Below are positions 2,536-12,730 of a stretch of DNA of 64,000 nucleotides, piece by piece. Source of the stretch: a virus. Location of the stretch: IMG/VR virus record IMGVR_UViG_3300003323_000790, positions 16,993 to 80,992 of that record; one strand, written 5' to 3'. How positions within the stretch are numbered: position 1 is the stretch's first letter; every line of letters begins with the position of its first letter. Under the pieces are notes generated by a model, which made no database searches, was not told the DNA's origin, and worked only from the letters and a program-made list of their open reading frames with translations. A program made the position numbers and the translations under genes.

Positions 2536-3152
2536 CCCAATCCGTCTACGACATTCTCGGCGTCAAGGCCACGGCCTCGCCGGCCGAGATCAAGAAAGCC
2601 TGGCGCAGGCTCGCGCAGGCGAACCATCCCGACAGAGGCGGCGATCCCAAGCTCTTCCAGAGCATCCAGCAAGCCTACGAAGTGCTGATCGACGTCGAGC
2701 GCCGCGCGCACTACGACCAGACCGGCTCCGACAAGGTGTCGGAGCCGGTCAGTAAGGAGCAGGTTCTGCTGGCCGAGGCCCAGCAGAACCTCGGCGTCTT
2801 GCTCAGTAGCCTGGTCGCGGCACACATCGACACCGTCCAGAGCCAGCCGCTCAAGTCGTTGCTGGTATTCGAGATCAAGGATCGGCTGGGCAAGGTGGGC
2901 AGGGACTTGGCACTCTTTGCCAAGGAGCGTTCAGCCCTGCTGGAAGTGGCGGATCGCTTTACCAGCAAGAGTGGTGCCTCGACGCTCTCCGACCTTGCCC
3001 GGTCGATCCTGTCAGGAGTGGACCAGAAGATTGATTCGGCGTCGAACTTCCGCCAGGTATGTGAGAAGATGCTGGAAATTGTCGAGCAGCACGAGTACCA
3101 CGCCGATCTGGCGTTGCCCGTCTCTGCGTCGACATGGTTTAGCCGGGTGTAG
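2532..3152 (+). CDS. J-domain (DnaJ-like) protein
   Basis: YDILGV...EIKKAWRRLAQANHPDRGG...IQQAYEVL with intact HPD motif; GAGG SD before ATG 2532. Confidence 0.9.
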   Translation: MTQSVYDILGVKATASPAEIKKAWRRLAQANHPDRGGDPKLFQSIQQAYEVLIDVERRAHYDQTGSDKVSEPVSKEQVLLAEAQQNLGVLLSSLVAAHIDTVQSQPLKSLLVFEIKDRLGKVGRDLALFAKERSALLEVADRFTSKSGASTLSDLARSILSGVDQKIDSASNFRQVCEKMLEIVEQHEYHADLALPVSASTWFSRV

Positions 3153-3158
3153 AAGAAG

Positions 3159-3182
3159 AAAGCCCGCCAAATGGCGGGCTTC
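3159..3182. terminator. intrinsic terminator between convergent genes
   Basis: AAGCCCGCC-AAAT-GGCGGGCTT hairpin; U-rich tail on the - strand. Confidence 0.75.
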
Positions 3183-3222
3183 AACTGCCTGAAGATGAGG
3201 GCCTGTTTCGGCAGGCCTTCAG

Positions 3223-3393
3223 CTAGCGACGATAGCTCTCATGCTCGGGCAGGTCGCTTTCGCTTATTTCCACAATCTCGTAGCTGCCCTCCGGAAACGG
3301 GCCGACGTCCTCGTTGAACTTGCTGTCGGCTTTCTCCTTGCTTTCTGCAGCGTAGTACAGGGTGAAGCCGGGGGCACTGATTTTGAAGTACAT
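3223..3393 (-). CDS. small hypothetical protein (56 aa, MYFKISAPGFTLYYAA...), absent from ORF track
   Basis: AGGAG SD 6 nt upstream of ATG, directly after the deacetylase-like gene. Confidence 0.6.
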   Translation of the reverse strand: MYFKISAPGFTLYYAAESKEKADSKFNEDVGPFPEGSYEIVEISESDLPEHESYRR

Positions 3394-3404
3394 GGTAAGC
3401 TCCT

Positions 3405-4757
3405 TTAAATATACACATCGGCGTCAAGAACCGCCTTCGATTGCGAGCATAGCACGTTCTGGAAGCCGTCCGTGAACTCTGCGGCCTTCATCAGTTCGCA
3501 CCACTGGTAGAACTGCGTCAGATCAATACCAAGTCCATCAGGTGGGCCGGACTTGGCAGTGTGCGTGAAGAAGTGCTGAAGGCCGCCGTGGAATTTAAGG
3601 GCTGCAATGCGATTCACCAGCTGCGTGTAAGCGGTTCCGGTATTCAGATTCGTACCGAGCAGCTGGTTTTGCCCCTGGCGCGTCATGCCGTCCACAAAAC
3701 TCGACCCGCCAGTACCGACACTGTTCAGCACCGGGCTGCCGCCGCCACGACGCCACACCACACCCTTGGATGCGAGAGTCGCATCGTTGGCGCGGTTGGA
3801 TGAGTTCAGTGGGTAGGCAAACACCTTGGGCGCTGGCAGACCAGCGGCCACGAAGTTGTCAACGCTGGCGAGCCAGTCCGCACCGATGTCGCGACCATTT
3901 GAGCTGTAGTCGGTATGCCCAATGCCTTGCGTACCCACTTCCCAGCCGTAGGTATTGATCAGGGTTTTCAGCATCGCCGCGTTGTTATTCACGGTGGCAG
4001 CGTCGCCGTCGATGAATGCTGTTGCTACCCAGCCGTTTGCTGCGAATGCAGGCGCAATAACGCTCAGGATTGTGGAGTCAGGGCTATCGGTCGAGAATGA
4101 CCAGCGCGGGATCCCCTTGGAGCCAACCACCAGCGAATCCAGCCAGCAAGTTTTGCTGGCCAGGCCGGTAAAGACAATCTCAAAATAGTTAAACGGATCA
4201 CCCCACGCCTGGCCGCCAGTGGAAACCCACGTCGTACCGGCCTGCGGCTCCATGGTGCCGTCTTCGCCAGCGCGCAAGGGAATAAAGTTCCAGCCTGGCC
4301 GGAAGTAAAAATTGGTCAGCGTGTAGGCAAGATTCTTGGTTGCCAAGGCATCCGAAGAAAACTTGATGATGGCAGTGGTGCTGCCAAAGGTAGGCTCATC
4401 GATGTAGACGGCCAACTTCATTTCCGTGCCGGACTGGATGTAAAACACCGTGCCGAACGTTTTCTTGATGCCGTCGTTGCTCGCACCGGCACCGAACACG
4501 CATTTGATTGCAGCCGAGCTACGCTGCGCTTTAGCCGCATCCGACGAACGGGTCACGCCGCCCGAGACAGCTGCCCAGTTCGCCGTATCGGAGAAGTCGA
4601 ACAGGACCGAAGCCTTGCGGTTACGTGGCTGTGGCACCAAGATTGGCGGCGCATTGGGGACCGCAAACCCTGGGGAATATCCTGTAGGGCTGCGCAAAGT
4701 CAGCGCAGGGGCCGAACCCTGCTGGATAACTGCATCTCGGCGAATCGTCGCACTCAT
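3405..4757 (-). CDS. putative virion-associated protein: beta-sandwich region plus degenerate polysaccharide deacetylase (CE4/NodB-like) domain
   Basis: WSFSTD...ATAFI...GWEVGTQGIGH...FAYP...FFTH order matches NodB-type motifs. Confidence 0.65.
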   Translation of the reverse strand: MSATIRRDAVIQQGSAPALTLRSPTGYSPGFAVPNAPPILVPQPRNRKASVLFDFSDTANWAAVSGGVTRSSDAAKAQRSSAAIKCVFGAGASNDGIKKTFGTVFYIQSGTEMKLAVYIDEPTFGSTTAIIKFSSDALATKNLAYTLTNFYFRPGWNFIPLRAGEDGTMEPQAGTTWVSTGGQAWGDPFNYFEIVFTGLASKTCWLDSLVVGSKGIPRWSFSTDSPDSTILSVIAPAFAANGWVATAFIDGDAATVNNNAAMLKTLINTYGWEVGTQGIGHTDYSSNGRDIGADWLASVDNFVAAGLPAPKVFAYPLNSSNRANDATLASKGVVWRRGGGSPVLNSVGTGGSSFVDGMTRQGQNQLLGTNLNTGTAYTQLVNRIAALKFHGGLQHFFTHTAKSGPPDGLGIDLTQFYQWCELMKAAEFTDGFQNVLCSQSKAVLDADVYI

Positions 4758-5455: not shown

Positions 5456-5862
5456 GCGACCCAAAATTCACAGCCTTGATGGCCAAGCTGCAGCGCAACC
5501 CGCTCTGGTTTGGCCCTCGCGGGTGGACGTGGACGACGCCCGACGGGCAGGTCCAGACGTTAGAGAACATCGCTCGGCAGCTGCCGGGCATGGCCAACCT
5601 GCTGTGGCTCTCGCTGCCGCTGGAGCGCCCAGCCGAGTACGACGCCCGCAATAACAGCGTCTACATGTGGGTGCTAGCCATCGGCGGCACCTCCCATAAC
5701 GTAAAGCGCTGGCCGGCCGGAACCTGGGAGCAACTCGCCGAGGGCCTGACCCTGGAAGAGTTTATCGCGCTGCCGGTGCCGCCGGCCGGCAGCACGGCCG
5801 ACCACCTGCAACGCCTTGCCCTTATCAAGGAAACCCATGCCAAAGCCAAAACTCACACTTGA
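5452..5862 (+). CDS. hypothetical protein
   Basis: ATGA overlap, phage-like codon usage. Confidence 0.6.
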   Translation: MSDPKFTALMAKLQRNPLWFGPRGWTWTTPDGQVQTLENIARQLPGMANLLWLSLPLERPAEYDARNNSVYMWVLAIGGTSHNVKRWPAGTWEQLAEGLTLEEFIALPVPPAGSTADHLQRLALIKETHAKAKTHT

Positions 5863-8185
5863 GCAGGTGATGGAACGGTATCCGTTCCCCTTCGAGCTCA
5901 AGCCCAATCAGAAAGAGGACATTATCCAGCTGGCCGAGTGGGGCCGCGCGCTGGGCGACCTGCCGGTCGGTTACGGCAAGACAGCGATCGCCACGGCCGT
6001 GGCTTTAATGCTACAGCCGGACGTCACCGTTGTGCTGGTGCCGCCTATCCTGGTGCCGGACTGGGTGCACTGGCTAAACAGCATCCCGAACATCGGCAGG
6101 GTGGTGGCGTGGGACGGCTCGCCGAAAGTGCGCGCCACCTTGGACCCGCACTCCGACTGGCTGGTCATGTCGTACGGCGTATTCCTGAAGGACGCCGAGC
6201 GCCTGAAGAAGGCGCTTCGAGAGGTCAACTTGTTCACGATTGTGGACGAGTGCTTCCCAGAAGGCACGTCGGTGCTCACACCGGAAGGTGAGCGGCCGAT
6301 AGAGGCCCTACGGAGCGGAGATTTAGTGTTGACCTCGGCAGGCCCACAAAGTATCGTTGAAGTATTTAAAAATCTGGCTTTTCAACTTTACACCCTGGAG
6401 CTTACGAATGGTACTGAGCTTACTTGCACAGGAAATCACCCAATATTTACGGACCTTGGATGGGTTGCCGCACGAGATTGTGAAGGAAGACAGGTACTTC
6501 ATCACGCTCAGGTGTGTGATGTGTCAAACGGAGTTCGAAAAGAAGATCTCGCTCATGGCCTATGCGATGCGCCACAAGAAACCCCTTGGGACCGCTTGCT
6601 CGAAGACATGCAAAGCGCATCGCCGAGCCTTGTTGTACCCAGAAAGCTACAAAGCAGCTGGCCTGAAGATGAAAGGAATTCCAAAGCCGGGTCCGAGAGG
6701 GGCGGGGAAAACTCGGATGCCCCTGAGCGACGCACACCGTGCGGCAGTGTCCGCAACTCTGAAGGCCAAGAGCCACAGGCCGCCCGTGCGGAAGGGGAAC
6801 GGGACTGGAATGACTCCAATGGAGGCAAAGTTATGGCCCCTGCTGATCTCTCTGGGGTTTGTGTGGAACCACGCAGTGAGCCTGGGCGCCAAGCACGAGA
6901 AGGGGTATCCATTCTGCTACAAGCTGGACTTCGCCCTTCCGGACGAGAAGGTGGGTCTGGAGGTGGATGGCCTATCGCACAACCTGATTTCTCGGCAAGC
7001 ACAGGACAGGAAGAAAGTCGAGAAGCTGGCGGAGTTAGGGTGGCGCGTGTTTCGTGTCAAGAATTCTCAGGTGGAATCCCTGTCTTCAACCTCCACGTTG
7101 CTCGACGTCATGACTATTATGCCGGAGGAATTCTCGTCCATAATTGCCAGAACTTTAAGAACTATCAGTCCAAGCGGTACATCGAGCTCAAGGCCTTGAC
7201 CGATGGCCAAGCGGCCGCGCCGCTCATGATGTCAGGCACCATGCTCTCGTCGCCCGAGGACGCCTACGGCTACGTGAAGCTGACCAACCCGAGCGCCTAC
7301 ACCAGCTTCCTGCAGTTCCGCAACATCCACGTCGCCGAAGTGGACTTCTTCGGGCGCGTTACGAAGTGGCAGCAGCTGGACCTCATGCAAAAGAATCTGT
7401 CCTATCGCCGCGTACGTCGGCTGAAGGAAGAAGTGCACGCCCACTTGATCAAGCCCCTTGTAATTCCGATCTTCTACGACCTGCCCAAGGAGCACATGAA
7501 GCTCTACAAGGAGCTGATGAACGACCAGATCCTGCTGCTGGATGACGGAAGCAAGATTGATGCCAGCACCGCGCAGCGGCTTTACCACTACTCACAGCAG
7601 ATCATCACCAACTGGGGCTACTTCGCCGACGACCCGACGAAGCGCTCGGCCGTGTTCGACCTGATCGACCAGGTGTGCGAGCAGCTGCGGCTCGGCGAGC
7701 CCCCGGTGCCGGGCGTCGAGGCCGGCCCCGACGCCGAGAAGCTGATCCTCTGGACGATGTACAAAATGACCAGCCGCACCGTGCTGGGCTACCTACAGGA
7801 AAAGCTTAAGCCGCTGGGCAAGGAGGCTGTGGGCGCATGGTCCGAGACCGACAGTCGCAAGGCTGTGGCCGCTTTCATGCGCGATCCGGACACGGTCGGC
7901 ATGGCCGCCCAGCCGGGCTCGGTCGGCGCCGGCCTGAATCCGCAGTACGTGTGCCGGGCGATCGGTTACGTCGAGATCCCGACCCGCACGATTGGTTTCA
8001 TCCAGTCGTCGGGGCGCATCTATCGCGAGGGTCAAAAGTATCAGCCGCTGGTGTGGCTCTTTGTTGCGCGCGACACCATCCAGGAAAAGCTGCTGGAGAA
8101 CCTACAGACAAACGACGACCTTGTCAATAAAGTTTCCGGCACGAAGCAGGGGATCAGAAATATGATTTTCCCAAATGGAAGATAG
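5837..8185 (+). CDS. SNF2/SF2 DNA helicase, intein-containing
   Basis: Walker A PVGYGKT, Walker B IVDE|C, MSGT, GAGLN, QSSGRIYREGQ. Confidence 0.9.
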   Translation: MPKPKLTLEQVMERYPFPFELKPNQKEDIIQLAEWGRALGDLPVGYGKTAIATAVALMLQPDVTVVLVPPILVPDWVHWLNSIPNIGRVVAWDGSPKVRATLDPHSDWLVMSYGVFLKDAERLKKALREVNLFTIVDECFPEGTSVLTPEGERPIEALRSGDLVLTSAGPQSIVEVFKNLAFQLYTLELTNGTELTCTGNHPIFTDLGWVAARDCEGRQVLHHAQVCDVSNGVRKEDLAHGLCDAPQETPWDRLLEDMQSASPSLVVPRKLQSSWPEDERNSKAGSERGGENSDAPERRTPCGSVRNSEGQEPQAARAEGERDWNDSNGGKVMAPADLSGVCVEPRSEPGRQAREGVSILLQAGLRPSGREGGSGGGWPIAQPDFSASTGQEESREAGGVRVARVSCQEFSGGIPVFNLHVARRHDYYAGGILVHNCQNFKNYQSKRYIELKALTDGQAAAPLMMSGTMLSSPEDAYGYVKLTNPSAYTSFLQFRNIHVAEVDFFGRVTKWQQLDLMQKNLSYRRVRRLKEEVHAHLIKPLVIPIFYDLPKEHMKLYKELMNDQILLLDDGSKIDASTAQRLYHYSQQIITNWGYFADDPTKRSAVFDLIDQVCEQLRLGEPPVPGVEAGPDAEKLILWTMYKMTSRTVLGYLQEKLKPLGKEAVGAWSETDSRKAVAAFMRDPDTVGMAAQPGSVGAGLNPQYVCRAIGYVEIPTRTIGFIQSSGRIYREGQKYQPLVWLFVARDTIQEKLLENLQTNDDLVNKVSGTKQGIRNMIFPNGR
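6251..7144 (+). mobile_element. intein (298 aa) in helicase Walker B; no in-frame endonuclease
   Basis: Starts CFPEGTSVLT, block B TCTGNHP, ends VFNLHV...YYAGGILVHN followed by +1 Cys; splicing restores IVDE-CQNFK. Confidence 0.92.
6408..7199 (+). CDS. Vsr/DUF559-like (EDxHD-type) endonuclease overprinted in the +1 frame of the intein
   Basis: GGAG SD 7 nt before ATG 6408; CVMC...CSKTC zinc site, NUMOD3-like LSDAHRAAVSATLK, YKLDFA...GLEVDGLSH...DRKK...LGWRVFRV. Confidence 0.85.
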   Translation: MVLSLLAQEITQYLRTLDGLPHEIVKEDRYFITLRCVMCQTEFEKKISLMAYAMRHKKPLGTACSKTCKAHRRALLYPESYKAAGLKMKGIPKPGPRGAGKTRMPLSDAHRAAVSATLKAKSHRPPVRKGNGTGMTPMEAKLWPLLISLGFVWNHAVSLGAKHEKGYPFCYKLDFALPDEKVGLEVDGLSHNLISRQAQDRKKVEKLAELGWRVFRVKNSQVESLSSTSTLLDVMTIMPEEFSSIIARTLRTISPSGTSSSRP

Positions 8186-8226: not shown

Positions 8227-8739
8227 ATGGTTACCGATAAAGAAAAAGAACAGCGAGCCAAAGAGGCCGCCTGGAACATCGCCGCCCTGGCTGGCTCTCC
8301 TGATCTGCAGGCCTACCGCATGCTGGCTTCCAAGGTGCGCGGCCTGGCTCGACATAACTCCGCGCTGGCGGTATGGGAGATCCAGGACGGCGAGATTTAC
8401 GTCCGTAACCGCTACTTCGTCATCAACGCGGCGGCCACACTGGAGCACGGCATGCGCCTGTTCCTGCGGGAGGAAATGACCCGCGCAACCTTGGAGATCG
8501 GCCACATCCCCACCCGCCTGCCCGGCACCGACTGCTTTGTGTGGGTCCCACGCCACACCGACGCGCGCTTCTGCCCGTCGGACCCGGCGGACGTGACCAG
8601 CCACACCCGGCTCTCAATGGGCATTATGTTCGGCTGCCCGGCGCGCATCGGCACCCTGGTGGAGGGCAAGGAATACCTGACCCTTGCCCGAGACATCGAA
8701 TCTTACCGACAACAGCTGGGAGCATTGGCACATGCCTAA
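8227..8739 (+). CDS. hypothetical protein
   Basis: GAGG SD; overlaps the primase start. Confidence 0.65.
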   Translation: MVTDKEKEQRAKEAAWNIAALAGSPDLQAYRMLASKVRGLARHNSALAVWEIQDGEIYVRNRYFVINAAATLEHGMRLFLREEMTRATLEIGHIPTRLPGTDCFVWVPRHTDARFCPSDPADVTSHTRLSMGIMFGCPARIGTLVEGKEYLTLARDIESYRQQLGALAHA

Positions 8740-11700
8740 TTTCATCTACTACCAAGTCAAGGGTGGTGAAGAGCGCTGGACGGTCGGACCAGCCTCGCAG
8801 GTAGAGCGCATTCGCGACGAATTCAACCCTATGTTCATCACGGCCCTGTCGGTGGCCAAGATGCCTGAAGAGCTGGAGTACGACGAGAAGCTGAAGCTGG
8901 CCTACTACGGTCCGCTCTATTTCGACTGGGATTCCGAGGACGGCGCCCACGTGATCGAGAAGGTCAACGAGATGCTCGACAACCTCGAAGAGCTAGGCCT
9001 GGACCTGCATGCCTGCCGGCTCTACGCCACCGGCGGGCGAGGCTATCACCTGGAGATCCCACCCTATCTCTTCATCGACAAAGACCCGTCCAACCGCGGC
9101 GTGGTGATGCTGCCGGCGATCTACCGCGAAATGGCGCTGGACTTGGCCGTCGACACCCTTGACCTGACGATCTATTCGACCGGGCGCGGCCGCATGTGGC
9201 GCCAGCCTAACGTCGAGCGCCAGAACGGCCGCTATAAGGTGCCGATCACGGTGGACGAAATGCGCTCGATGACCGTCGAGCGTTGCGAAGAGCTGACCTC
9301 CAAGCCGCGCTCCTTGGAAGCACCGACCAAGGCCGAGTTGTGCCTGAAGCTGAACATCAAGTACGAAGAGGCCAAGCAAAAAGTCGAGGCGCTGATGAAG
9401 CGTCGCGGCAAATTCAAGGCCGATCCGAAGGCCAAGGAGAAGGCGAATGGCCTGTCGGTCGAGATGATGCTGGCCGGCCTGGGTATCAAGGAAGGTTCGC
9501 ACTTCCAGCAGATCGCCACGCAGCTGGCGATCGTGGCGCACACGGCCGGCTGGTCGGAGAGCGATCTGGTCGAGAAAGCGCAGGGGTTGGTGAACAGCCA
9601 CCAGAGCGACGGCAATCGCTACAACAGTCCGGAGAAGCGCAACAATGAGCTGCGCCGCATGTGGCGCTACATGTACGACAACGTCTGCTACGAATTCAGC
9701 ATCGGCGCCCTGAAGGCGCTGATGTCACACTCGGCGCCCGACTTGGACAACATCCCAACGACGCGCGAAGAGCTGGAGCAGACCATCAAGGAAGAGGCGG
9801 CGGCCGAGGCGGAATCGGAAGATCAGGAGATCGACGAATACGCCGACGTCGCCGCCGGCATTTCGCTCACCAAGTACGGCGTGTACATGCAGACCGCCAC
9901 CGAAGGCAAGAAGCGCATCTGCGCTGTCTCCTTCGAGACATCGGCGGTGCTGTTCTCCACTGAGTCCGGCCAGATCGTGGCCTTCGAGGCCGAGGTGCTG
10001 GTCAACGGGCGGCCGTCGGGCCGCCAAACCCTTGAGCTGGATGTGTTCTCCGGCCTTGTGCAATTCAATCGCTTTGTGGCCCGCTACGGGCACTCATTCC
10101 AAGGCACAGATCTTCAAGTACGGACGGTTATGATGCGCTTTGTCGAGCAAGCAAAAAAGAAAGGCGAGAGCCTGTACATCGTGAAGCGGGAAGGACTTGA
10201 CCTCGTCAACATCCAGCACCACGAAAACGAACTCTACCGCAAGCCCTTCCTGGTGTGGGCTGACCACCACCAAGTCGTGCTGCAAAAAGAAATCGCCGAG
10301 TCGGGCCTGAACCTCGTCTTCACCGGCTTCCCTGATCCGCAGGGTGAGTTCAAAACCGACCTGTCACAGGCGCCGGTGCTCAAGGAGTGGATCGAAGAGC
10401 CTGGCAATAAGGAAAAGCTGCGCGACGTGCTGCAGGCGGCGATGACCTGCCAGAAGTCGGAGCTGATCGGCAAGTACATCGGCTGGTATGTGGCCTGCTT
10501 CTGGAAGCCGCTGTTCCAGGCGGCGTACGGCAAGTTCCCGCTGCTGCACGTGAACGGCGCGGCGGGCGCCGGGAAATGTATGGGGTTCAACACTCCGGTG
10601 ATCATGGCCGACGGCACCACGAAAATGGTACAGGACGTGCAGGTTGGCGACCAGTTGCTCGGACCGGACGGCGGCGTACGCAACGTGCTGTCGCTGGCGC
10701 GCGGCCGGGAGCTGATGTACCGCGTGACCCCGGTAAAGGGTGACTCGTATGTTGTAAATGCGTCACACATCCTGAGCCTGAAACGTTCAGATCGCTCCTG
10801 CCGGCTGTCGGACGGGACTCAGGTTACCGCGGCAGATGACGTCGTGAACGTCAACGTCGAGGTCTACGCACACAGTTCGGCTGCCGCCCGCAAGGCGTTG
10901 AAGGGGTGGCGCAGCGACGCGGTGGAATTCCACCGCGAGGCAGAAGACCTGCCGCTGGACCCTTACTGGCTGGGCGTATGGTTGGGCGACGGCAAGCACG
11001 ACCTGCCGCAGATCACGAAGCCAGCAGATACGAACATGGTGCGCTGGTGGATTGCCCACGCTGAGCAACATGGCCATCTGGTCTCTCGCCATGAGTATGA
11101 TGATCGCTGCCCGAGCTGGGCGGTACGCTCTAAGGACGGGCGCTGGGATGCACAAGGCAACCAGTTCACGCAGCGCCTGCAGGCCCTCGGCCTGCTGGGC
11201 AACAAGCATATTCCGGCGGCATACAAGTTCGCGCCGATGGAAGACCGCTTGCGTCTGCTGGCCGGCCTGATTGACTCCGACGGCTCCCTGGACAAGGCGG
11301 GCTACGACTGGGTCAGCAAAGACAAGTCACTGGCGGAAGATTTTGCCTTCCTCTGCCGCTCGGTCGGCCTGGCCGCTTATGTCAAGGAGTGCACGAAAGG
11401 TATCCAGTCGACTGACTTTGTGGGCACCTACTGGCGCGTGAGCGTCAGTGGGGACTGCGACAAGATCCCTTGCCTGGACAAGAAGGCGCCGCCACGCAAG
11501 CAGGCAAAGCGTGTGACGGTGACTGGCATCTCGGTGGAGCCTATCGGCGTGGACAACTACTACGGTTTCCAGATCGACGGCGATCATCTGTTCTTGCTGG
11601 GCGACTTCACGGTCACCCACAACACCGACATGACCAAGTCCTTCTCCTGCTTCTTCTACCACCAGCGCGAGCCGTACTCGACGTCGCCGACCTCGACCGT

Positions 11701-12730
11701 CTTCTCGATCACCCAGCAGATCTCCAGCACCTCGTCGATCCCCTTCGTACTGGACGAGTACAAGCCGCACGCGCTGCAGGGTGACATGGTCAACAAGTTG
11801 CGCGCGATCTTCCGAGACAGCTACAACCAGACGATGATGGCGCGCGGCGGCGGCACACGCGAGAACGACGACTACCGCCAGCTCCAGCGCACTCAGCTGT
11901 CGGCGCCGGTGGTATTCATCGCCGAGGCGGCCGAATCCGAGCCGGCCGTCATGGAGCGCGTGGTGCTGGCCACCGTGGTGCCGCCGCCGGCGTCGATGAA
12001 GAACACGTGGCGCGCGCGGTTCCAGCTGTTCCGCCAAAACCGCGAGCTGCTGGGCATCCTGGGCCAGTACCTGGCCGCCAAGGTCGTGCAGTCCTATTCG
12101 GTGGACCGCCTGCGCACGGAGTTCAACGACCTGTACGAAGAGGCTGCCAACACCTACATGCTCAACGCCGACGACATCGAGCGCATGAAGGCCGGCGACC
12201 TGGACGAAGAGCTGTCGCTCAAGGCCAACGCCAAGGAGCGCTCGGTGTACAACCACACGGTGGCCAAGTTCGGATTCCAGCAGTTCAGGAGCCTGATTAA
12301 CCAACTCTTGGGACCTGTGCTTGATGACCTGATGGGCGAACTTGAGTCCGGTCTCTACGCGCGCATGTCCGACTTGCAGGCCTCGACCACACCGGAAATT
12401 GTCCGCGTGCTGGAGACGATGTCGCGCATGACCTATGCGACGGAGGACACCCGGCCGGATGCGTTGCGCGAGAACTACGAATATGCGATTGCCGGCGACA
12501 CCTTGGAGCTGGACGCTTACTCGGCCTACACGCGTTATCGCATCTTCATGCGCCAGGCTGCCTTGCAGCCGCTCTTCCCTGACGTCTATCCATTCCTGCA
12601 GGCGATGAAGGACTTGGAGGCGTACAAGTCGACGGCGACGGGCGATCACTTGAAGCGGCCGCAGGTGATTGTGCTGTCGATCAACGCGCTGACCCGCGCC
12701 GGCGTGCCGCCATTTAAAGGCGGCAAATAA
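8732..12730 (+). CDS. primase-helicase (AEP-like primase plus P-loop ATPase), intein-containing
   Basis: LYFDWD and TGGRGYH AEP motifs; Walker A GAAGAGK|T; Walker B VLDEY. Confidence 0.85.
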   Translation: MPNFIYYQVKGGEERWTVGPASQVERIRDEFNPMFITALSVAKMPEELEYDEKLKLAYYGPLYFDWDSEDGAHVIEKVNEMLDNLEELGLDLHACRLYATGGRGYHLEIPPYLFIDKDPSNRGVVMLPAIYREMALDLAVDTLDLTIYSTGRGRMWRQPNVERQNGRYKVPITVDEMRSMTVERCEELTSKPRSLEAPTKAELCLKLNIKYEEAKQKVEALMKRRGKFKADPKAKEKANGLSVEMMLAGLGIKEGSHFQQIATQLAIVAHTAGWSESDLVEKAQGLVNSHQSDGNRYNSPEKRNNELRRMWRYMYDNVCYEFSIGALKALMSHSAPDLDNIPTTREELEQTIKEEAAAEAESEDQEIDEYADVAAGISLTKYGVYMQTATEGKKRICAVSFETSAVLFSTESGQIVAFEAEVLVNGRPSGRQTLELDVFSGLVQFNRFVARYGHSFQGTDLQVRTVMMRFVEQAKKKGESLYIVKREGLDLVNIQHHENELYRKPFLVWADHHQVVLQKEIAESGLNLVFTGFPDPQGEFKTDLSQAPVLKEWIEEPGNKEKLRDVLQAAMTCQKSELIGKYIGWYVACFWKPLFQAAYGKFPLLHVNGAAGAGKCMGFNTPVIMADGTTKMVQDVQVGDQLLGPDGGVRNVLSLARGRELMYRVTPVKGDSYVVNASHILSLKRSDRSCRLSDGTQVTAADDVVNVNVEVYAHSSAAARKALKGWRSDAVEFHREAEDLPLDPYWLGVWLGDGKHDLPQITKPADTNMVRWWIAHAEQHGHLVSRHEYDDRCPSWAVRSKDGRWDAQGNQFTQRLQALGLLGNKHIPAAYKFAPMEDRLRLLAGLIDSDGSLDKAGYDWVSKDKSLAEDFAFLCRSVGLAAYVKECTKGIQSTDFVGTYWRVSVSGDCDKIPCLDKKAPPRKQAKRVTVTGISVEPIGVDNYYGFQIDGDHLFLLGDFTVTHNTDMTKSFSCFFYHQREPYSTSPTSTVFSITQQISSTSSIPFVLDEYKPHALQGDMVNKLRAIFRDSYNQTMMARGGGTRENDDYRQLQRTQLSAPVVFIAEAAESEPAVMERVVLATVVPPPASMKNTWRARFQLFRQNRELLGILGQYLAAKVVQSYSVDRLRTEFNDLYEEAANTYMLNADDIERMKAGDLDEELSLKANAKERSVYNHTVAKFGFQQFRSLINQLLGPVLDDLMGELESGLYARMSDLQASTTPEIVRVLETMSRMTYATEDTRPDALRENYEYAIAGDTLELDAYSAYTRYRIFMRQAALQPLFPDVYPFLQAMKDLEAYKSTATGDHLKRPQVIVLSINALTRAGVPPFKGGK
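10577..11623 (+). mobile_element. intein (349 aa) with LAGLIDADG homing endonuclease, in Walker A
   Basis: CMGFNTPV start, VNASH block B, YWLGVWLGDG and LLAGLIDSDG, ends YYGFQI...VTHN with +1 Thr. Confidence 0.95.

What the first reader, a model, noticed from the sequence alone, without database searches (positions are those of the whole stretch)
6251..7199. Intein whose homing endonuclease is overprinted in a different reading frame
Seen: a complete intein (C1, TxxH block B, HN/C) splits the helicase DE|C Walker B. Its central ~180 residues look like shadow-frame sequence (R/G/S/E-rich, no nuclease motif). The +1 frame is open from ATG 6408 (GGAG SD, 7-nt spacing, inside the N-terminal splicing domain) to TGA 7199, past the intein end. 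It encodes a zinc site, a NUMOD3-like helix and a Vsr/DUF559-type nuclease (LDFA...LEVDGLSH...DRKK...GWRVFR). About 790 nt are stop-free in both frames. Known: intein endonucleases are normally in-frame, as in the second intein here, and Vsr-like EDxHD nucleases such as I-Bth0305I act as homing enzymes. Inference: a dual-coding selfish element in which the nuclease is translated independently of the host protein and of splicing, while the intein frame tolerates the insert as a loop.
Basis: partly seen in the sequence, partly recalled or inferred. Interest (0 to 1): 0.9.

Follow-up and report, generated by a model that had tools for sequence, protein, structure and literature searches.

The report
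Helicase intein with out-of-frame homing nuclease
A phage helicase gene carries a self-splicing intein, and a separate DNA-cutting enzyme, probably the one that spreads the intein, is written one base out of step over the same DNA; the layout is real and kept by selection, but this design has already been described for other inteins.

Summary
The SNF2-type helicase ORF 5816..8185 holds a 298-aa intein (6251..7144) at the Walker B DE|C site. Its +1 frame holds a 263-aa ORF (ATG 6408 to TGA 7199) that passes Pfam's DUF559 cut-off.

It is not an assembly artefact. In 83 of 84 sequences examined the nuclease lies +1 inside a long stop-free host ORF. Across 66 distinct overprinted ORFs the host frame has 0 stops, against 5.2-19 expected after synonymous recoding.

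Purifying selection switches frame. It acts on the host frame over the splicing domains and on the nuclease frame in the middle.

A sister helicase clade has intein-less alleles. One free-standing nuclease copy sits beside an intein-less target gene.

Translation, splicing and cleavage are inferred, not shown. The NUMOD3 claim was not supported.

The design is already in print: Gorbalenya 1998 as cited, and Gogarten-lab papers of 2025-26. In the text I could read I did not find this same-strand +1 Vsr-like family.

This scan has noted the same layout before on other DNA: 139 notes in at least 105 genomes.

The parts
5816..8185 (+). Host gene: SNF2-type DNA helicase ORF (789 aa, precursor including the intein). 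The start codon is not settled; TTG 5816 is the first start in the ORF.
   Evidence: ORF; SNF2-rel_dom, DEAD; phrog_62 DNA helicase, E 2.4e-50
6251..7144 (+). Intein, 298 aa, in the helicase frame, inserted at Walker B ..VDE|C..
   Evidence: C1, block B TGNH, terminal VHN followed by Cys; Hint_2 34.9 bits (cut-off 28.4)
6251..6499 (+). N-terminal splicing domain (blocks A and B; TGNH at 6428..6439). The downstream border is approximate.
   Evidence: invariant T60, H63, G70-W71-V72; host frame is the selected frame here in relatives
6500..7069 (+). Host-frame linker: stop-free, polar, no recognisable domain. It is the shadow of the nuclease frame. Borders are approximate.
   Evidence: no Pfam hit in this part; poorly alignable
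7070..7144 (+). C-terminal splicing domain (blocks F and G, ..IPVFNLHV..HDYYAGGILVHN)
   Evidence: (host frame selected in the tail region)
6408..7199 (+). Overprinted +1 ORF, 263 aa: zinc-Cys N-terminal part plus a DUF559/Vsr-like nuclease. It runs 55 nt into the C-extein because the usual stop in block G is missing here.
6397..6400 (+). GGAG Shine-Dalgarno-like motif 7 nt before ATG 6408. The same start and SD occur in the closest relative, L004.
6513..6611 (+). CxxC ... CxxxC motif (C36, C39, C64, C68 of the +1 product), a probable zinc site
   Evidence: C36, C39, C68 invariant, C64 in at least 90% of 62; weak match to zinc-binding L24e, E 0.005; scattered treble-clef hits
6813..7079 (+). 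DUF559 / Vsr-like nuclease domain of the +1 product (residues 136-224; E185, D187, H191, D200)
   Evidence: 3hrl, E 1.3e-10; 62 of 62 members hit DUF559
6329..6357 (+). Promoter-like site TTGACC-17-TATCGT (9 of 12). It is not above chance, so no own promoter is shown.
   Evidence: 1 found against 0.4 +/- 0.8 in shuffles

Best explanation
The phage's SNF2-type helicase gene is interrupted at the Walker B DE|C codons by a contiguous intein that can probably still splice. Only the two splicing domains are meaningful in the helicase frame. The roughly 190 codons between them are a stop-free polar spacer.

The same DNA, read one base downstream (+1), is a separate 263-aa gene. It encodes a four-Cys (zinc) DNA-binding part and a DUF559/Vsr-like nuclease.

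Inferred steps, none shown:
- The nuclease is made by internal initiation (ATG 6408, GGAG 7 nt upstream) on the helicase mRNA.
- It cuts intein-less helicase alleles near the Walker B codons during co-infection.
- Repair then copies intein and nuclease together (homing).
- The helicase is rescued by protein splicing, with the spacer looping out.

Shown: the architecture, its conservation, complete stop avoidance, frame-switching purifying selection, and intein-less alleles in a sister clade.
For: Architecture.

Same +1 layout in isolate phages. In each, match start minus annotated helicase CDS start, modulo 3, equals 1: Pseudomonas phage MR14, Vibrio phages 159E43-1b and 1.088.O, Corynebacterium phage phi673 and Vibrio phage CP-T1.

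Conservation. In 83 of 84 sequences (the window, 3 phage records, 80 IMG/VR loci, the best 80 of 107 found) the host frame is open across the whole nuclease match, inside ORFs of 448 to more than 2255 aa. The nuclease frame is never fused to the host (185-308 aa). The third frame is always short (2-60 aa).

Stop avoidance. In 66 distinct overprinted ORFs there are 0 host-frame stops, against a mean of 11.4 expected. At most 0.45% of recodings stay open. T-ending codons before AA/AG/GA codons: 0 of 4063, against 22.4% elsewhere. The free-standing relative has 8 stops in that frame.

Selection (rates per possible change). In the central region, changes silent in the nuclease but not in the host run at 0.105, against 0.032 for the reverse (9 independent pairs: 0.0715 against 0.0219). 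The order reverses over the N-terminal (0.033 against 0.077) and C-terminal (0.0375 against 0.064) splicing domains.

Integrity. The window's product keeps all 19 family-invariant residues, and all 62 members hit DUF559.

Start. A start codon with SD lies at the same place in the window's clade. In other clades an ATG lies 1-3 codons before the first Cys, often only 4-11 codons after an in-frame stop.

Mobility.
- Four host protein families are involved, and the intein N-flanks printed mostly read ..DE|C.
- All 80 fetched helicase relatives of the L005 clade lack the intein (..VVDE|ANAYKN..), one of them 91% identical in the C-extein.
- A free-standing copy lies directly upstream of an intein-less homologue of one host gene.
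Against: There is no expression, splicing or cleavage data.

The selection test used relatives only. The window's nearest relative is 50% identical, so recent inactivation of this particular copy cannot be excluded.

The window's copy is atypical in two ways:
- It lacks the usual stop inside block G and reads 55 nt into the extein, the only one of 64 to do so.
- Its middle region is the most divergent in the four-sequence alignment.

The start codon is not settled; 13 of 64 representatives showed neither start pattern. The promoter-like site is at chance level. The sequence link to the characterised homing enzyme I-Bth0305I (3r3p) is weak, E 0.092. No NUMOD motif was found.

The 83 loci share one origin, so they show maintenance of the layout, not repeated invention (tree).
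Confidence: 0.8

Rival explanations
1. Assembly artefact: two compensating indels hide an ordinary in-frame nuclease domain.
For: Taken alone, a shift into +1 after block B and back before block F would give a canonical-looking intein.
Against: The same +1 offset occurs in 5 independently sequenced isolate phages and in 79 of the 80 IMG/VR loci (the exception, L082, is free-standing). None of the 84 has the nuclease in frame. The nuclease ORFs have their own starts and stops, and the stop lies inside block G in 63 of 64.
Confidence: 0.01
2. The +1 ORF in this window is a decaying relic. The family is functional, but this copy no longer makes an active nuclease and the intein is merely inherited.
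For: This copy has lost the canonical stop. Its middle region is divergent. It has no close relative with which to test selection on it (nearest 50% identical).
Against: All 19 invariant family residues are kept. DUF559 scores above the cut-off. The ORF is intact over 263 codons, with start and SD as in L004.
Confidence: 0.08
3. The nuclease is reached by programmed +1 ribosomal frameshifting from the helicase frame, giving an N-extein/N-intein/nuclease fusion, rather than by internal initiation.
For: Both frames are open upstream of the nuclease domain in the window (from 6333). The start is not settled.
Against: In many relatives an in-frame stop lies only 4-11 codons before an ATG that directly precedes the first Cys. 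That leaves little room for a shift site and fits an independent start. I did not look for a slippery site.
Confidence: 0.04
4. The +1 nuclease is functional but serves something other than homing of this intein, such as competition between co-infecting phages or cutting host DNA.
For: No target site has been tested. DUF559 proteins are widespread outside mobile elements (recalled, not tested here).
Against: Nuclease clades track the host-gene family: 6 label changes on the tree, against a minimum of 5 and a mean of 28.6 when labels are shuffled. That is as expected if each clade recognises its own insertion site. The free-standing copy sits next to the intein-less target gene.
Confidence: 0.07

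Closest known systems
Non-canonical actinobacteriophage inteins whose homing endonuclease lies in a separate reading frame (Gosselin, Arsenault and Gogarten, bioRxiv 10.1101/2025.01.02.630785; passages read)
   Same: A contiguous intein in the extein frame. The endonuclease slot gives no recognisable structure in frame. A separate overlapping ORF encodes the endonuclease. They propose origin from a free-standing endonuclease gene, jumps between genes through shared nucleotide-binding-site sequence, and note that annotation pipelines miss these ORFs.
   Different: They report antisense LAGLIDADG, antisense VSR-like and same-strand frame-3 endonuclease VII-like cases, in DNA polymerase, minor capsid, terminase and thymidylate synthase. 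Here the nuclease is DUF559/Vsr-like, on the same strand, in +1, in helicases and two other host types.
Cyanobacterial dnaX intein with a LAGLIDADG endonuclease in a +2 ORF (Phillips, DeSimone and Gogarten, bioRxiv 10.64898/2026.09.14.751524; abstract and sections 10 and 17 read). It credits Gorbalenya 1998, 'Non-canonical inteins', which is not held.
   Same: A same-strand out-of-frame endonuclease inside a contiguous intein. Selection is frame-dependent (low omega in the endonuclease frame, high in the host frame). There is a Shine-Dalgarno motif before the inner start, and intein-free alleles coexist.
   Different: The nuclease fold differs (LAGLIDADG), as do the frame offset, the host gene (dnaX) and the setting (bacterial chromosome rather than phage).
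Fractured genes: split inteins with a free-standing Vsr-like or GIY-YIG endonuclease gene between the halves (Dassa et al. 2009, PMC2677866; passages read)
   Same: A Vsr-like nuclease gene sits at the endonuclease slot of an intein in phage replication or packaging genes, on the same strand, with its 3' end overlapping the C-terminal intein part.
   Different: There the host gene is broken: a stop after the N-half, 27-51 nt of non-coding DNA, and a new start for the C-half. Here the host frame has no stop at all (0 in 66 ORFs) and the overlap covers the whole nuclease gene.
I-Bth0305I, prototype of the EDxHD (Vsr-like) homing endonucleases (Taylor et al. 2011, PMC3239194; passages read)
   Same: A C-terminal Vsr-type catalytic domain with conserved E, D, H and D residues, and a separate N-terminal DNA-binding part. 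It cuts next to the insertion site of its mobile element.
   Different: I-Bth0305I is encoded in a group I intron and has NUMOD motifs and no zinc. Here there are four conserved Cys, no NUMOD hit, and only a weak profile match to 3r3p (E 0.092). The best solved relative is the DUF559 protein 3hrl (E 1.3e-10).
ShiLan-type out-of-frame HNH endonuclease insertions in phage methylase genes (Arsenault et al. 2025, PMC11855218; passages read)
   Same: A homing-type nuclease gene hidden in another frame of a host ORF that stays stop-free. The host-frame translation is predicted to loop out.
   Different: It has no intein splicing domains, an HNH nuclease, and lies in the third frame.

Membership tests
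Intein (Hint-fold protein-splicing element) | Cys/Ser at position 1, block B TxxH, C-terminal HN followed by Cys/Ser/Thr | tested here: met
   C1 at 6251, TGNH at 6428..6439, VHN|C at 7136..7147. These positions are conserved in the alignment and the C-terminal HN|C/S junction is found in all 83 host ORFs.
Intein (Hint-fold protein-splicing element) | Profile match to a Hint or intein model above the curated cut-off | tested here: met
   Hint_2 scores 34.9 bits against a cut-off of 28.4. Intein_splicing scores 29.3, below its cut-off of 35.8.
Intein (Hint-fold protein-splicing element) | Protein splicing actually occurs | not testable with these tools
   Inferred only, from motif integrity and the likely need for an intact Walker B motif in the helicase.
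[quoted passage not shown] | The host frame is contiguous through the intein while the endonuclease is a separate overlapping ORF | tested here: met
   0 host-frame stops; nuclease ORF 6408..7199 in +1.
[quoted passage not shown] | Purifying selection on the endonuclease frame in the overlap and on the host frame in the splicing domains | tested here: met
   on relatives (34 pairs, 9 of them independent). Not testable on the window's own copy.
[quoted passage not shown] | The in-frame translation of the endonuclease slot has no fold | tested here: inconclusive
   No Pfam domain in the slot and poor alignment there.
DUF559 / Vsr-like (EDxHD) homing endonucleases | Vsr-type catalytic domain by profile | tested here: met
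   DUF559 at 31.5 bits against a cut-off of 20.6; 62 of 62 family members hit it; PDB 3hrl at E 1.3e-10.
DUF559 / Vsr-like (EDxHD) homing endonucleases | Conserved E, D, H, D active-site residues | tested here: inconclusive
   E185, H191 and D200 are invariant and D187 is in at least 90% of 62 sequences. Their equivalence to the I-Bth0305I residues rests on a weak match (3r3p, E 0.092).
DUF559 / Vsr-like (EDxHD) homing endonucleases | N-terminal NUMOD DNA-binding motifs, as described for I-Bth0305I and some fractured-gene members | tested here: not met
   0 of 62 members hit a NUMOD model at E<=0.01. A four-Cys motif is present instead.
DUF559 / Vsr-like (EDxHD) homing endonucleases | Site-specific cleavage of the element-free allele | not testable with these tools
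   Inferred from intein-less alleles and from the way nuclease clades track host families.
Fractured gene with split intein (Dassa 2009) | Host gene broken into two ORFs: a stop after the N-intein half, a spacer, and a new start for the C-half | tested here: not met
   The host frame is uninterrupted in the window and in 83 of 84 sequences.

The most novel reading that the evidence does not exclude
This is not an accidental nesting. It is a co-adapted composite that persists only in the overprinted state.

- The nuclease start sits inside the N-terminal splicing domain.
- In 63 of 64 relatives its stop is built into intein block G, in 42 of them as a TAG across the Leu-Val codons. Nuclease and intein therefore cannot easily be separated.
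- The pair has spread among Walker B (..DE|) sites of unrelated P-loop proteins: two helicase families, a helicase-methylase fusion and a packaging-type ATPase.

On this reading it would be the stable 'third state' between free-standing or fractured-gene endonucleases and canonical in-frame inteins.
Probability: 0.4. Interest if true: 0.55.

Novelty: new member of a known kind. Interest (0 to 1): 0.4.

Why it matters
- It shows that overprinting of an intein's homing nuclease is the normal, selected state of a large phage-borne family, not a rare accident. In the five annotated isolate records I opened, only the helicase CDS is listed over this stretch.
- Inteins scored as 'mini' or 'decaying' may therefore hide active nucleases.
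- It links the Vsr-like endonucleases of fractured genes to contiguous inteins.
- It points to cultured carriers for testing how an embedded +1 gene is translated: Pseudomonas phage MR14, Corynebacterium phage phi673 and several Vibrio phages.
- If splicing is confirmed, the roughly 190-residue unselected spacer would be a natural example of a long loop tolerated between intein halves.

The general design is already published, so the gain is in scope and detail, not in principle.

Tried and rejected
Structure. Prediction of the +1 product was asked for once.

Reads. The look-up of sequencing runs listed no run and no RNA holder.

Near-identical DNA. Megablast of the helicase gene against phage records found nothing.

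Intein-less alleles of the window's own helicase.
- The single-protein scan found no relative.
- An 18-sequence extein alignment was too diverse to search with.
- A narrower alignment of the L005 clade worked, so the intein-less alleles shown belong to a sister clade, not to the window's own lineage.
- The intein-bearing loci fetched earlier did not reappear in that list. The share of occupied alleles therefore cannot be computed from it.
- No co-conversion tract was visible between L005 and the intein-less L086: about 70-87% nt identity in all 60-nt windows.

Extra selection on the host-frame spacer for hydrophilicity: rejected. Against stop-free synonymous recodings, the observed spacer is no more polar (mean z for hydropathy +0.65; polar fraction 0.658 against 0.661; 64 ORFs).

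Own promoter (the claim of note e1-6128176): one weak site, at chance level.

NUMOD3: no hit.

Host family 3 stayed unnamed by Pfam and PHROGs. 'Packaging-type ATPase' is my reading of its Walker motifs, not a tool result.

Literature. These searches found nothing relevant: intein + 'different reading frame', + overprinting, + DUF559. The search with 'out-of-frame' found the prior work. Gorbalenya 1998 is not held and is cited second-hand. My statement that this family is not in print rests and on the passages read.
Full report
WHAT IS THERE. The window is part of an 80,992-base IMG/VR virus record that CheckV rates complete. ORF 5816..8185 (+, 789 aa) is an SNF2-type helicase. After ..GTG GAC GAG (Walker B, VDE) a 298-aa intein begins with Cys (TGC 6251). 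It has block B, T-G-N-H, at 6428..6439. It ends ..GGILVHN (CAT AAT 7139..7144) before Cys 7145. Pfam sees only Hint-type models, on the two ends of the intein (Hint_2 34.9 bits, cut-off 28.4). It sees nothing in the roughly 190 residues between them.

The +1 frame is open from 6333. From ATG 6408 (GGAG at 6397..6400, 7-nt spacing) to TGA 7199 it encodes 263 aa. These match DUF559 at 31.5 bits (cut-off 20.6). The third frame has 17 stops over the same span. The second intein it mentioned, in ORF 8684..12730, indeed has an in-frame LAGLIDADG domain.

NOT AN ARTEFACT, NOT CHANCE. A tblastn search with the +1 product hit 41 phage records and 43 at a looser threshold. In the five records I opened, the hit lies under one continuous annotated helicase CDS. 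In each, match start minus CDS start, modulo 3, equals 1. The five are Pseudomonas phage MR14, Vibrio phages 159E43-1b and 1.088.O (with ORFs checked), Corynebacterium phage phi673 and Vibrio phage CP-T1. A profile scan of IMG/VR found 107 relatives, of which the best 80 were kept.

Across the window, 3 phage records and these 80 loci, 83 of 84 have the frame that is -1 to the nuclease open over the whole nuclease match. That frame belongs to ORFs of 448 to more than 2255 aa, and all end the insert with ..HN|C/S. The nuclease frame is never fused to the host (185-308 aa). The third frame is always short (2-60 aa).

Of the 84, 67 nuclease spans are distinct. In the 66 overprinted ones the host frame has 0 stops. 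Synonymous recoding with each locus's own codon usage gives 5.2-19 stops (mean 11.4) and leaves the frame open in at most 0.45% of 2000 trials. The signature is sharp. A T-ending nuclease codon never precedes a codon starting AA, AG or GA (0 of 4063), although 22.4% of codons end in T elsewhere. The one free-standing relative (L082) has 8 stops in that frame.

WHICH FRAME IS SELECTED WHERE. I used pairs of relatives 80-99.5% identical in the central region (34 pairs, 9 of them sharing no sequence). Each single-base difference was classed by its effect in both frames and scaled to the number of possible changes.
- Between the first zinc Cys and the GWxVxRF motif, changes silent in the nuclease but not in the host occur at 0.105. 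The reverse class occurs at 0.032 (independent pairs: 0.0715 and 0.0219).
- Upstream, over the N-terminal splicing domain, the order reverses (0.033 against 0.077).
- In the tail over blocks F and G it also reverses (0.0375 against 0.064).

So each stretch of DNA is read for function in one frame. The other frame is constrained mainly to avoid stops. A test for further selection on the spacer, for example for hydrophilicity, was negative.

These pairs do not include the window, whose nearest relative is 50% identical. What can be said for the window's own copy is narrower: it keeps all 19 residues invariant in 62 family members, including C36, C39, C68, E185, H191 and D200.

THE NUCLEASE. All 62 aligned members hit DUF559. 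The family profile matches the solved DUF559 protein 3hrl (E 1.3e-10). It matches the I-Bth0305I catalytic domain 3r3p only weakly (E 0.092). The N-terminal CxxC...CxxxC motif is conserved and weakly resembles zinc-binding L24e (E 0.005).

START AND STOP. In the window's clade a start codon with a GGAG/GAGG/GGAGG motif 6-7 nt upstream lies 34-36 codons before the first Cys. It is ATG in the window and in L004, and TTG in most others. In other clades an ATG sits 1-3 codons before that Cys, often only 4-11 codons after an in-frame stop. This fits independent internal initiation better than frameshifting. However, 13 of 64 representatives showed neither pattern, and nothing here shows translation.

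The stop lies inside the intein in 63 of 64. In 43 it ends 8 nt before the intein end, and in 42 of those it is a TAG formed across the Leu-Val codons of block G. The window is the single exception. Its Leu codon is CTC, so the ORF runs 55 nt into the C-extein, adding about 20 residues.

The promoter-like site at 6329..6357 is no more than chance gives.

MOBILITY. The host ORFs fall into several groups:
- SNF2 helicases: 44 sequences, the window among them.
- ResIII/DEAD-type helicases: 22.
- An ATPase not named by Pfam or PHROGs: 9.
- Helicase-methylase fusions: 5.
- Three singletons.

The intein N-flanks printed mostly read ..DE|C. A few differ (for example L058), and I made no formal count. 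Nuclease clades follow host families: 6 label changes on the tree, against a minimum of 5 and a mean of 28.6 for shuffled labels (quick tree). This is what one expects if each clade recognises its own site, and it means the loci share one origin.

All 80 fetched relatives of the L005-clade helicase lack the intein (..VVDE|ANAYKN..). Of these, 73 are complete and 7 are cut upstream, and one is 91% identical in the C-extein. Their +1 residue is Ala in 75, Cys in 4 and Gly in 1, whereas occupied alleles have the Cys that splicing needs.

L082 carries a free-standing copy (2752..3405). It lies directly upstream of, and overlaps by 11 nt, an intein-less homologue (about 50% identity on both sides of the site) of the unnamed ATPase host. 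On the tree it sits within that host's nuclease clade, with modest support.

A distant intein-less homologue of the window's helicase (527 aa, Vibrio phage K478b) lies between primase and polymerase genes.

WHAT IS KNOWN. Dassa et al. 2009 described Vsr-like endonuclease genes between the halves of split inteins. There the host gene is broken, with a non-coding spacer and only a 6-69 bp overlap. They proposed that loss of the flanks could put the nuclease in frame. Taylor et al. 2011 characterised I-Bth0305I and named the EDxHD family.

Inteins whose endonuclease lies in another frame or strand are in print:
- Gosselin, Arsenault and Gogarten (bioRxiv 2025) report antisense LAGLIDADG, antisense VSR-like and same-strand frame-3 endonuclease VII-like cases in actinobacteriophages. 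They state that VSR-like endonucleases had otherwise been reported only with split inteins.
- Phillips, DeSimone and Gogarten (bioRxiv 2026) show a LAGLIDADG gene in a +2 ORF of the cyanobacterial dnaX intein, with frame-dependent selection. They credit Gorbalenya 1998 for the first proposal.
- Arsenault et al. 2025 describe out-of-frame HNH genes in methylases without an intein.

The design is therefore known. In the text I could read I did not find a same-strand +1 DUF559/Vsr-like family in helicase Walker B inteins. The supplements were closed, and Gorbalenya 1998 is not held.

EARLIER NOTES OF THIS SCAN. After my own tests I looked up earlier notes. The same layout has been noted 139 times in at least 105 genomes. 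Several follow-ups reached the same verdict: real, selected, common, design already described. They agree with what I found independently and did not change it. A second first-reader note on this same stretch adds 'its own promoter', which one search does not support.

VERDICT. The element is an out-of-frame-endonuclease intein, a new member of a recently described kind. Its function as a homing unit is well supported by comparison but untested at the bench.

Noticed in passing
window 8684-12730: A second intein, with an in-frame LAGLIDADG endonuclease (Hom_end_hint 72 bits, LAGLIDADG_3), sits in the 1348-aa replication protein just downstream. Two different intein designs lie 1.5 kb apart.
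   Followed up: partly
window 7130-7199: The window's nuclease ORF is the only one of 64 representatives that lacks the stop inside intein block G. Its Leu codon is CTC, where 42 others form a TAG across the Leu-Val codons. It therefore reads 55 nt into the C-extein.
   Followed up: yes
window 6300-6450 and 7050-7200: GC content falls to 0.44-0.47 at both ends of the intein, against 0.60-0.69 in the exteins. The element's composition differs from that of its host gene.
   Followed up: no
L082 2752-5215: A free-standing copy of the nuclease gene overlaps by 11 nt the start of an intein-less homologue of the unnamed ATPase that hosts the intein in L052 and eight other loci.
   Followed up: yes
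L086-L165 (helicase junction): Intein-less alleles read ..VVDE|A.. in 75 of 80, with C in 4 and G in 1. Occupied alleles always have Cys at +1, so insertion goes with an Ala-to-Cys change in helicase motif II.
   Followed up: partly
L056 996-4703; L064 614-4783: These host ORFs appear to carry two inteins each (two Intein_splicing or Hint stretches in Pfam).
   Followed up: no
L036 3-6767: An ORF of more than 2255 aa, open at both ends of the locus, combines a DarB-like antirestriction region and a helicase (PHROGs) and carries the same overprinted intein.
   Followed up: no
phage records MT104474.1, OZ196825.1, MG592463.1, NC_042354.1, JQ177061.1: In all five annotated isolate genomes only the helicase CDS is listed over the nuclease ORF. 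The +1 gene is unannotated.
   Followed up: yes
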